DNA of 35,896 nucleotides from Eledone cirrhosa (taxonomy: Eukaryota), in contig CAXHJY010001476.1 of the NCBI GenBank assembly GCA_964016885.1, positions 1-35,896 of the forward strand, written 5' to 3'. Below the pieces are notes generated by a model that was not told where the DNA came from, made no database searches, and saw only the letters and a program-made list of their open reading frames with translations. Both the position numbers and the translations under genes were made by a program. Positions 1-1,037 of this stretch are shown here, one piece after another (position 1 is the stretch's first letter; every line of letters starts with the position of its first letter).

Positions 1-299
1 AAAAAAAACTTGGTACATCTACATATGTATACGTGTGTGTATTCATATACATACTAGTATTTCAGTATACATATATGGATGTACATCTTTGACTTAATTG
101 TTTGAGCGTCAGTCATACAAAAGTGAGTTACAAACGAAACGAAATTTAATTTCGTTTCGTTATTTGTTTTTATCGTCTCCGTTGAACCGGTACTTACTCA
201 CACTCTATGCAAGTTGGTCTGCCCACTACTAATTTTCATAGAAAAAGCATATAGCGATATGTGCTTTTACGATTCTCTAGAGTGGCCGGAAGATAGGTA

Positions 300-344
300 A
301 ATATTGCTGATGAGTTGTAACAACAACGAAACTAGTTCAATATT
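300..344 (+). ncRNA. Minimal type I hammerhead ribozyme (469-bp unit, copy 1)
   Basis: AATATTG-CTGATGA-GTTGT-AACA-ACAAC-GAAA-CTAG-TT/CAATATT: 7-bp helix I, intact CUGAUGA/GAAA core, 5-bp helix II, palindromic CUAG helix III loop, GUU triplet (predicted cut 337/338). Confidence 0.9.
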
Positions 345-768
345 CCTTGTCTGGCTTTCTGGAGAATAGAGGAAAGGTGTTTCCTCAAAAACCAGTATGA
401 CTCTAAAAACCGGTTTGTCTGTGTGTTTACATACAGAATAGCTGGCCACTCACAGTAAAGTGATCAGTGAAAAAAAACTTGGTACATCTACATATGTATA
501 CGTGTGTGTATTCATATACATACTAGTATTTCAGTATACATATATGGATGTACATCTTTGACTTAATTGTTTGAGCGTCAGTCATACAAAAGTGAGTTAC
601 AAACGAAACGAAATTTAATTTCGTTTCGTTATTTGTTTTTATCGTCTCCGTTGAACCGGTACTTACTCACACTCTATGCAAGTTGGTCTGCCCACTACTA
701 ATTTTCATAGAAAAAGCATATAGCGATATGTGCTTTTACGATTCTCTAGAGTGGCCGGAAGATAGGTA

Positions 769-813
769 AATATTGCTGATGAGTTGTAACAACAACGAAA
801 CTAGTTCAATATT
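769..813 (+). ncRNA. Minimal type I hammerhead ribozyme (469-bp unit, copy 2)
   Basis: Same motif as 300-344, offset by 469 bp. Confidence 0.9.
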
Positions 814-1037
814 CCTTGTCTGGCTTTCTGGAGAATAGAGGAAAGGTGTTTCCTCAAAAACCAGTATGACTCTAAAAACCGGTTTGTCTGTGTGTTTACA
901 TACAGAATAGCTGGCCACTCACAGTAAAGTGATCAGTGAAAAAAAACTTGGTACATCTACATATGTATACGTGTGTGTATTCATATACATACTAGTATTT
1001 CAGTATACATATATGGATGTACATCTTTGACTTAATT

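What the first reader, a model, noticed from the sequence alone, without database searches (positions are those of the whole stretch)
1..1037. 469-bp tandem array also carries one hammerhead per unit
Seen: near-canonical motif at 300-344 and 769-813 (7-bp helix I, GTTGT/ACAAC helix II, CTAG palindrome, GUU triplet). It sits within a longer imperfect stem (ttctctagag...ttctggagaa), and the unit also has a 13-bp hairpin at 133-161. No obvious similarity to the 310-bp unit outside the core. Inference: a second retrozyme-like family with a larger monomer.
Basis: partly seen in the sequence, partly recalled or inferred. Interest (0 to 1): 0.8.

Follow-up and report, generated by a model that had tools for sequence, protein, structure and literature searches.

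The report
Young hammerhead retrozyme with Penelope footprints
This 469-base non-coding repeat carries one self-cutting-type RNA motif per unit and is a new member of a known class of animal jumping RNAs; its end points in TA repeats and its A-to-G changes suggest it was likely copied from edited RNA by a Penelope-type enzyme, though cutting and circle formation are untested.

Summary
Observation confirmed. Positions 1-1037 hold 2.2 identical 469-bp units, each with a canonical type I hammerhead (Rfam HH9 E 2.7e-8, below gathering score; 0 of 20,000 random units match as well). The monomer folds strongly (z -9). This is a non-LTR retrozyme, and 469 bp is within the published size range. Mechanistic clues: the array ends in (TA)n at unit position 99, not at the cut site (337). 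Public contigs show TA junctions at 99 and 173. The sister insertion has two inverted arms ending at roughly homologous points, like a Penelope fragment in the same window. Variant rows are 9 A/G to 1 T/C on the ribozyme strand, as ADAR-edited RNA templates would leave. So Penelope-type copying from RNA is likely; a circular template is plausible, not shown. Cleavage, expression and the left arm are untested. This scan has already reported the same picture for other families in this genome, so the locus adds a member, not a new kind.

The parts
1..1037 (+). Tandem array, at least 2.2 identical 469-bp units; left end runs off the window
300..344 (+). Type I hammerhead, unit 1; cut predicted between 337 and 338
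769..813 (+). Type I hammerhead, unit 2; cut predicted between 806 and 807
338..806 (+). Predicted 469-nt monomer RNA between two cut sites; no ATG ORF over 23 aa on either strand; 35.8% GC
   Evidence: z -9.17; circular z -9.0
330..337 (+). 8-nt palindrome over helix III; would pair with its copy at 799-806 in a double hammerhead
   Evidence: duplex -6.6 kcal/mol; pair probability only 0.06-0.08 in the dimer ensemble
272..367 (+). Imperfect stem extending helix I past an internal loop in the register of the Rfam HH9 model
13..86 (+). Long TA-rich hairpin; the sister unit has a pure TA tract here
133..161 (+). 13-bp perfect hairpin followed by a T-rich tract
204..255 (+). Block most conserved with the sister unit: hairpin 204-242 kept by sequence rather than by compensatory change, then an AT-rich box; promoter-like or protein-binding (untested)
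1037..1038 (+). Right junction: unit position 99 joined to the TA microsatellite (short end)
   Evidence: same junction as a loose end in one contig of run X1
170..173 (+). Second recurrent end point (long end), seen as TA loose ends in 12 contigs of run X1; predicted end of an inverted arm left of the window
91..216 (+). Four G positions (91, 104, 213, 216) that are A in 94-99% of run X1 depth and A in the aligned sister unit; candidate A-to-I editing scars, present in both full units
1038..2116 (.). (TA)n/TATG microsatellite, the likely insertion target
25971..27060 (-). Related locus: 497-bp sister retrozyme, main arm on minus strand with two hammerheads (cores at 26790 and 26293) plus a short inverted arm 26968-27060; both outer ends in TA repeats
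19140..21666 (-). Related locus: truncated Penelope-like element, GIY-YIG fragment 20173-20688, two inverted arms, 39-nt tail on the inverted arm, both ends in TA repeats

Best explanation
This is a young insertion of a non-coding, hammerhead-bearing tandem repeat (a non-LTR retrozyme) whose multimeric RNA is predicted to cut itself into 469-nt units that would be closed into circles, and which was likely pasted into a TA microsatellite by the enzyme of a Penelope-like element. Shown by sequence or calls: identical tandem units, a covarying type I hammerhead in each, a strongly folded monomer, a TA junction at unit position 99, a second family junction at 173, a sister insertion with two inverted arms ending near the homologous points, and an A/G skew on the ribozyme strand. 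Inferred: (1) read-through transcription of an array, perhaps from the conserved 204-255 block; (2) cleavage after 337, probably helped by two hammerheads pairing through the 330-337 palindrome; (3) ligation by a host RtcB-type ligase; (4) ADAR editing of the folded RNA; (5) Penelope GIY-YIG nicking of (TA)n and reverse transcription starting at two fixed internal points, 231 and about 305 nt downstream of the cut, giving a long arm (this array) and an inverted arm left of the window. I put the retrozyme label at about 0.9, Penelope-type mobilisation through RNA at about 0.75, and a circular rather than linear template at about 0.45.
For: Hammerhead; 8 of 14 pairs change on both sides and 39 of 42 cells pair across the 469, 497 and 310 units, 1 of 500 shuffles as high, slid controls 29-55% paired. 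Helices I and II form with probability 0.63-0.99 in the circular fold. Homology to the sister: global score 229.5 against 29 +/- 14, maximum 73 of 200 shuffles. Ends: window junction at 99; of the 14 loose-end rows shown, two in X1 are TA runs on the 3' side, at 99 (1 contig) and 173 (12 contigs); the sister's ends lie 159 and 221 nt before the next cut against 164-167 and 238 here. The Penelope fragment in the window has the same polarity, with the tail on the inverted arm; its relatives carry RT plus C-terminal GIY-YIG. Inverted 5'-truncated copies, a 30-40-bp tail and microsatellite bias are described Penelope features (PMC8557442). RNA stage: 9 of 12 variant rows are A/G, 1 T/C, 2 A/T; 9:1 gives P 0.021 with equal purine and pyrimidine content; 6 of 7 differences of the window or X4 from the X1 majority are A>G, P about 5e-4 under a simple null; 4 of those 6 sit opposite U in stems with pair probability 0.94-1.0.
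Against: No cleavage or expression data. The left end is outside the window and no genome is held, so the inverted arm of this copy is a prediction. The tail here (74 nt) and in the sister (62 nt) is longer than the 30-40 bp described for Penelope elements. The unit shows no similarity to the window's Penelope 3' region (scores 22-31 within shuffle range). 44 loose-end rows were not shown, so the two end points may not be the only ones; the match at the short end is loose (17 nt apart by distance to the cut). The four G sites are shared with the X4 contig, so they may be inherited from a parent copy rather than edits of the one template molecule; variant rows are related by descent, which inflates the P values; ADAR neighbour preference is not significant (P 0.34 and 0.07). 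The two sister units differ at 4 substitutions and 1 indel in about 347 aligned bases, and the 10 compared 310-bp units show no A>G skew (1 of 15 differences). Helix III has probability 0 in the monomer and the double-hammerhead pairing only 0.06-0.08 in the dimer. Li et al. saw cleavage in only 1 of 9 predicted dimers.
Confidence: 0.65

Rival explanations
1. Same element and same Penelope-type enzyme, but the template is a linear, partly uncleaved multimeric transcript with a defined 3' end near unit position 170-173 (hairpin plus T tract). Tandem units are then inherited from the parent array, and circles are a by-product.
For: The long end follows a 13-bp hairpin and a T5 run (167-171). Sister units differ from one another, including at two A/G sites, as a multimer edited unit by unit could give. 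The shared G sites also occur in X4, so identity of the units does not need a circle. Weak helix III would leave many hammerheads uncut (PMC4209133).
Against: The sister's long end lies 5 nt beyond its T run. A T4-free stretch as long as the one downstream of the promoter-like block occurs in 3,588 of 20,000 shuffles, so there is no support for a Pol III transcript ending there. A change seen in no laid run (T at 283) is present in both units.
Confidence: 0.2
2. A satellite that arose once from a Penelope terminal repeat and now spreads at the DNA level (unequal crossover, gene conversion, circular DNA), with the hammerhead as baggage; this is the local-amplification route discussed by Li et al.
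For: 100% identical units fit recent homogenisation. Li et al. propose local tandem amplification from pLTRs. The unit contains a TA-like tract (13-86) that could aid recombination with TA repeats.
Against: Recurrent ends at 99 and 173 lie outside the TA-like tract; the sister has an inverted arm with a tail; the A/G skew is strand-specific; hammerhead pairs are kept by compensatory change.
Confidence: 0.08
3. The RNA is mobilised by an APE-type LINE (two such RT ORFs and LINE 3' fragments lie in the window) through ordinary target-primed reverse transcription.
For: LINE remnants in the window also abut TA repeats. Cervera and de la Pena leave LINEs open as partners.
Against: No similarity to the 1.1-kb LINE fragment or the 28671-32077 LINE; two 3'-type outer ends with a fixed offset match the Penelope pattern, which PMC8557442 says is not observed in LINE target-primed insertion.
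Confidence: 0.05
4. The hammerhead is a chance match, or the array is an assembly artefact.
For: Below the Rfam gathering score; perfect unit identity could come from consensus polishing.
Against: 0 of 20,000 random units; covariation with two other families; the 469-to-1 joint and the 99 junction occur in independent contigs.
Confidence: 0.02

Closest known systems
Metazoan non-LTR retrozymes of coral, mussel and axolotl (Cervera and de la Pena 2020, PMC7229834; parts 2-4 of 6 read, supplement not readable)
   Same: Tandem non-coding units, one type I hammerhead each, GC below 50%, highly self-paired monomer in which the ribozyme helices can form, co-occurrence with Penelope-like elements.
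   Different: Unit 469 bp against 150-450 bp; expression and cleavage shown there, untested here; the parts read do not describe fixed array ends, inverted arms or editing scars in genomic copies.
Axolotl HHR_Amex1/Amex2 and newt satellite 2 hammerheads (PMC7229834; PMC6155905 passages)
   Same: Very short palindromic helix III, predicted to work best as a double hammerhead; internally looped extension of helix I. Newt satellite 2 has an internal snRNA-type promoter (PMC2220036, one passage), a possible parallel to block 204-255.
   Different: Two-pair helix III with a 2-nt loop and an 8-nt palindrome; no sequence comparison with the amphibian units was made; promoter function untested.
Non-LTR retrozymes as non-autonomous Penelope derivatives (Li, Clavereau, Pollet 2026, 10.64898/2026.07.22.740005; parts 1-3 of 5 read, supplements closed)
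   Same: Meets their criterion of two consecutive units with a complete hammerhead; size within their 51-972 bp range; Penelope elements present in the same genome.
   Different: Their link rests on pLTR homology and co-occurrence; here no pLTR homology was found with the one local element, and the link rests on insertion geometry.
Penelope-like elements with endonuclease (Craig et al. 2021, PMC8557442, 12 passages; Cervera and de la Pena 2014, PMC4209133, 12 passages)
   Same: Tandem plus inverted arrangement, tail at one end, (TA)n targets, type I hammerhead.
   Different: No RT/GIY-YIG ORF; tail 62-74 nt rather than 30-40; canonical rather than minimal hammerhead.

Membership tests
Metazoan non-LTR retrozyme | Tandem repeats with a type I hammerhead in each unit, at least two consecutive complete units | tested here: met
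Metazoan non-LTR retrozyme | Unit of a few hundred bases | tested here: met
   469 bp; inside 51-972 bp, 19 bp above 150-450 bp
Metazoan non-LTR retrozyme | Non-coding, GC below 50% | tested here: met
   longest ATG ORF 19 and 23 aa, longest stop-free frame 60 codons, GC 35.8%
Metazoan non-LTR retrozyme | No LTR, primer binding site or polypurine tract | not tested
   pure head-to-tail units leave no LTR; no search for a primer binding site was run
Metazoan non-LTR retrozyme | Highly self-paired monomer | tested here: met
   z -9.17 linear, 0 of 100 shuffles; z -9.0 circular, 67% paired
Metazoan non-LTR retrozyme | Many genomic copies at several loci | tested here: inconclusive
   1,029 variant contigs and very high summed depth in X1, with TA junctions at two unit positions; run kind unknown, depth is not a copy number, no genome held
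Metazoan non-LTR retrozyme | Self-cleavage | not testable with these tools
   needs an in vitro assay
Metazoan non-LTR retrozyme | Expression as linear and circular monomer RNA | not testable with these tools
   needs tissue RNA; contigs cannot show RNA ends or strand
Canonical metazoan type I hammerhead | Conserved core, helix I about 6 bp, helix II about 4 bp, helix III 1-2 bp with a 2-4-nt palindromic loop (PMC4209133) | tested here: met
Canonical metazoan type I hammerhead | Loop 1-loop 2 tertiary contacts | tested here: inconclusive
   loop sizes and several loop letters align to the HH9 model without gaps; contacts themselves not testable
Rfam Hammerhead_HH9 (RF02275) | Score at or above gathering threshold 52 | tested here: not met
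   37.7 bits; works like it, not filed as a member
Penelope-like element (autonomous) | RT plus GIY-YIG ORF | tested here: not met
   no ORF in the unit
Penelope-mobilised insertion | Microsatellite target | tested here: met
   right junction in (TA)n; TA loose ends
Penelope-mobilised insertion | Inverted 5'-truncated arm | not testable with these tools
   left end outside the window; present in the sister insertion
Penelope-mobilised insertion | 30-40-bp tail at one end | tested here: inconclusive
   fixed offset present but 74 nt here and 62 nt in the sister, against 39 nt in the window's Penelope fragment
Penelope pLTR derivative | Sequence homology to a Penelope terminal repeat | tested here: inconclusive
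   none to the one element in the window; other families of the genome could not be searched

The most novel reading that the evidence does not exclude
Each insertion of this family is a DNA print of one edited RNA circle: a Penelope reverse transcriptase starts at two structure-defined points on the 469-nt circle, one from each nicked strand of a TA repeat, and copies round and round, fixing ADAR edits in every unit. The end points are conserved between diverged sister families, so they mark the RNA signal that Penelope enzymes recognise, and they would give a compact substrate for the still missing in vitro Penelope retrotransposition assay.
Probability: 0.3. Interest if true: 0.65.

Novelty: new member of a known kind. 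Interest (0 to 1): 0.35.

Why it matters
How animal retrozymes get back into the genome is proposed (circular RNA template, Penelope enzyme) but not shown in the papers read, and Craig et al. name the origin of Penelope tandem and inverted structures as an open problem. This family offers testable handles: two end points that look conserved across sister families and strand-specific A-to-G changes. The element itself is ordinary for its class, and this scan has reported the same handles for other families in this genome, so the added value of this locus is one more family and one sharp prediction about its left end.

Tried and rejected
Expression: no RNA holder listed; this says nothing either way. 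Cross-species spread: 20 rows from 17 studies hold part of the unit, but of the 4 runs laid only X1 holds it in bulk; X4 has 2 contigs at depth 8-10, X5 has 12 at depth 3-17, X21 has 2 reads under 90% alike in about 1% of the run, although another run of its organism label holds 0.55 of the words, and two other runs of X5's organism label hold next to none. Pol III transcript ending at the T5 run: T4-free stretch not unusual, 3,588 of 20,000 shuffles. ADAR neighbour preference: not significant. Purifying selection on the core: none of 12 variant rows falls in 307-337, but fewer than one is expected, so no evidence. Relation to the 310-bp unit outside the core: none. Relation to the window's Penelope 3' region or LINEs: none; no hammerhead core heptamer on either strand of 19140-21666. 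More loci: 0 matches to a family motif in metagenome and viral contigs; 0 look-alike windows by sequence. Host taxon: the LINE RT search gave no useful organism names; the cephalopod label comes only from earlier scan notes. Whole-monomer RNAalifold of two sequences missed helix I because of the rotation and misalignment and was not used for pair counts. A finer table of low-frequency variants and further junctions was not obtained, which leaves the end-point and editing statistics resting alone. Literature searches found no paper on cephalopod retrozymes, on ADAR scars in retrozyme copies or on two-armed retrozyme insertions; the library lacks most subscription papers, and the supplements of PMC7229834 and of the 2026 preprint could not be seen and may bear on this. 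Hammerheads as such are on record in a cephalopod genome: 235 hammerhead-1 loci in giant squid (PMC6962438, passage).

Full report
Observation. The window starts inside a tandem array: period 469, 2.2 copies, 100% identity, ending at 1037 against a TA microsatellite. Each full unit holds a type I hammerhead at 300-344 and 769-813 with a 7-bp helix I, the CUGAUGA core, a 5-bp helix II, GAAA, a 2-bp helix III inside an 8-nt palindrome (330-337) and a GUU triplet, so cleavage is predicted after 337 and 806. Of 20,000 random sequences of the same length and dinucleotide make-up, 11 hold any loose motif and none one this good. Rfam finds nothing at gathering thresholds; at E-value threshold, Hammerhead_HH9 aligns over 289-360 with E 2.7e-8 and 37.7 bits against a gathering score of 52, with gaps only in helix III. 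The cut-to-cut monomer folds at -155.5 kcal/mol, z -9.17, 0 of 100 shuffles as stable; as a circle z is -9.0 and helices I and II form with probability 0.63-0.99, while helix III does not form. The unit is non-coding and 35.8% GC.

Surroundings. The window is animal-type DNA made largely of TA repeats and retroelement debris: two LINE-type RT ORFs and a GIY-YIG fragment among 8 ORFs scanned. A relaxed scan finds 16 motifs: 2 of the 469-bp family, 11 of the 310-bp family, 2 of a third family on the minus strand, and 1 doubtful single hit at 14308. The third family (497-bp unit, 25971-27060) is homologous to the 469-bp unit over its whole length: global score 229.5 against 29 +/- 14 (maximum 73) in 200 shuffles, and 129 against 30 +/- 4 without the ribozyme core. 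Across the three hammerheads 39 of 42 cells pair, 8 of 14 pairs change on both sides, 1 of 500 shuffles scores as high and slid controls fall to 29-55%. With three sequences this is a small sample, but it shows the helices are kept while the letters change. Host taxon was not established here; earlier scan notes call the genome cephalopod-like.

End points. If a cut linear monomer were primed at its own 3' end, arrays would end at unit position 337. This one ends at 99. Four public runs were laid on the unit. In X1, 1,029 contigs lie on it; among the 14 loose-end rows shown (44 more not shown), the TA runs on the 3' side are at 99 (1 contig) and 173 (12 contigs); X5 adds a TA run on the 5' side of position 14, at the unit's own TA-like tract. 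The sister insertion is complete in the window and has two arms: a long arm and a short inverted arm, both ending on their RNA-3' side in TA repeats. Measured back from the next cut site, its ends lie at 221 and 159 nt, against 238 and 164-167 nt for 99 and 170-173: a close match for the long end, a loose one for the short end. The truncated Penelope-like element at 19140-21666 has the same layout, with a 39-nt tail on the inverted arm; its endonuclease fragment matches 5 proteins among 87 candidates, all with an RT domain. Craig et al. describe inverted 5'-truncated copies, a 30-40-bp tail and microsatellite bias as Penelope features not seen in LINE insertion (PMC8557442, passages). The inference is that a Penelope-type enzyme made these insertions, and the prediction is an inverted arm ending near 173 to the left of the window. 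Against it: the tails here are 62-74 nt, and the unit does not resemble the local element's 3' region. I looked at the ends after reading earlier scan notes on other families.

Sign of an RNA stage. One search lists 12 variant positions at 5% share or more: 9 A/G, 1 T/C, 2 A/T. Purines and pyrimidines are equal in the unit (234 and 235), so 9:1 has P 0.021; dropping the three rows 271, 278 and 282, which travel together on one X5 contig, leaves 7:0, P 0.016. At 91, 104, 213 and 216 the window has G where X1 has A at 94-99% of depth and the aligned sister has A (the alignment is firm at 213 and 216, weaker at 91 and 104). The X4 contig shares these four and adds A>G at 212 and 342. So 6 of the 7 differences of the window or X4 from the X1 majority are A>G, P about 5e-4 under a simple null; this count leaves out the 5 rows that are polymorphic within X1. 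Four of the six sites pair with U in stems at probability 0.94-1.0. ADAR editing mainly targets double-stranded repeat RNA across animals (PMC5625713, passages). Limits: the variants are related by descent, neighbour preference is not significant, the 310-bp array shows no such skew between its units (1 of 15), and sharing with X4 means the G sites may predate this insertion.

Mechanism. Shown: anatomy, covariation, junction at 99, family junction at 173, sister geometry, strand skew. Inferred from the class (PMC7229834, parts 2-4 of 6): transcription of arrays, self-cleavage to monomers, better as dimers when helix III is short (also PMC4209133 and PMC6155905, passages), and circularisation by RtcB. 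The palindrome could pair between units (-6.6 kcal/mol) but does so at only 0.06-0.08 in the computed dimer ensemble, and Li et al. saw cleavage in 1 of 9 predicted dimers, so activity is not assured. Inferred from this work: editing of the RNA, then Penelope-type reverse transcription from two fixed internal points into (TA)n. A circle explains start points away from the cut and identical units, including a T at 283 seen in none of the three runs that cover it. A linear uncleaved multimer ending near the hairpin and T tract explains the same ends, and the small differences between sister units. This locus cannot separate the two. The most conserved non-ribozyme block (204-255) is a hairpin kept by sequence; it may be an internal promoter, as reported for newt satellite 2 (PMC2220036, passage), or a protein-binding site. 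A test for Pol III-style T-run depletion was negative.

Distribution. Twenty rows from 17 studies hold part of the unit, but the laid runs other than X1 hold it at trace depth, and sibling runs of two of those organism labels hold almost none. I read this as carry-over and make no claim of horizontal transfer. X1's summed depth (about 50,000-760,000 per bin) beside single-variant contigs at depth 13-39 would mean thousands of copies if X1 is a DNA run, but its kind is not on record, summed depth is not a copy number, and X1 may be a different individual or species from the window's.

Comparison and verdict. The element meets all sequence-testable features of a metazoan non-LTR retrozyme; cleavage and circular RNA are untestable here. 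Its size is unremarkable (51-972 bp in Li et al., parts 1-3 of 5 read). It is not an Rfam HH9 member by score and not an autonomous Penelope element. Seven literature searches found no description of fixed-end two-armed retrozyme insertions or of editing scars in their copies, with the caveat of unseen supplements and missing subscription papers. This scan has already noted both features for 310-, 466-, 467/468-, 478- and about 500-bp families in the same genome; those notes are leads, not support. Verdict: real feature, new member of a known kind, interest 0.35; the bolder reading (DNA print of an edited RNA circle made by a Penelope enzyme) has probability about 0.3 and would deserve about 0.65.

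Noticed in passing
window 25971-27060 (minus strand main arm, plus strand inverted arm 26968-27060): Third hammerhead family, 497-bp unit with an internal TA tract of variable length, homologous to the 469-bp unit; complete two-armed insertion with a 62-nt tail; U-U mismatch at the base of helix II.
   Followed up: yes
window 19140-21666: Truncated Penelope-like element (C-terminal GIY-YIG, 54-65% identical to four RT-bearing proteins) as two inverted arms in TA repeats with a 39-nt tail; no CUGANGA core on either strand.
   Followed up: partly
window 22293-25707: 310-bp hammerhead array, 11 units, both ends in TA repeats, apparently one arm only; 15 unit-specific differences among 10 units, no A>G skew.
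   Followed up: partly
window 4729-5834, 16519-17623, 33124-34163: Three 96-97% identical copies of a 1.1-kb LINE 3' fragment (weak RT match), each next to TA repeats.
   Followed up: no
window 28671-32077 and 12392-14324: Two APE/RT LINE remnants; the 876-aa ORF at 28977-31607 has relatives that often carry a PHD-finger Pfam domain.
   Followed up: no
window 2112-2164 and 2660-2712: 53-bp direct repeat, 98% identical, framing a 550-bp AT-rich segment between two TA runs; unexplained.
   Followed up: no
window 14308 (minus strand): Single loose hammerhead-like match at the edge of a LINE remnant, with weak helix II; probably chance.
   Followed up: no
run X4, one 503-nt contig on window 1-469: A clean whole-unit contig at depth 10 that closes on itself and differs from the X1 majority only by six A>G substitutions plus extra A's; could be carry-over from an edited RNA population, but run kind is not on record.
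   Followed up: partly
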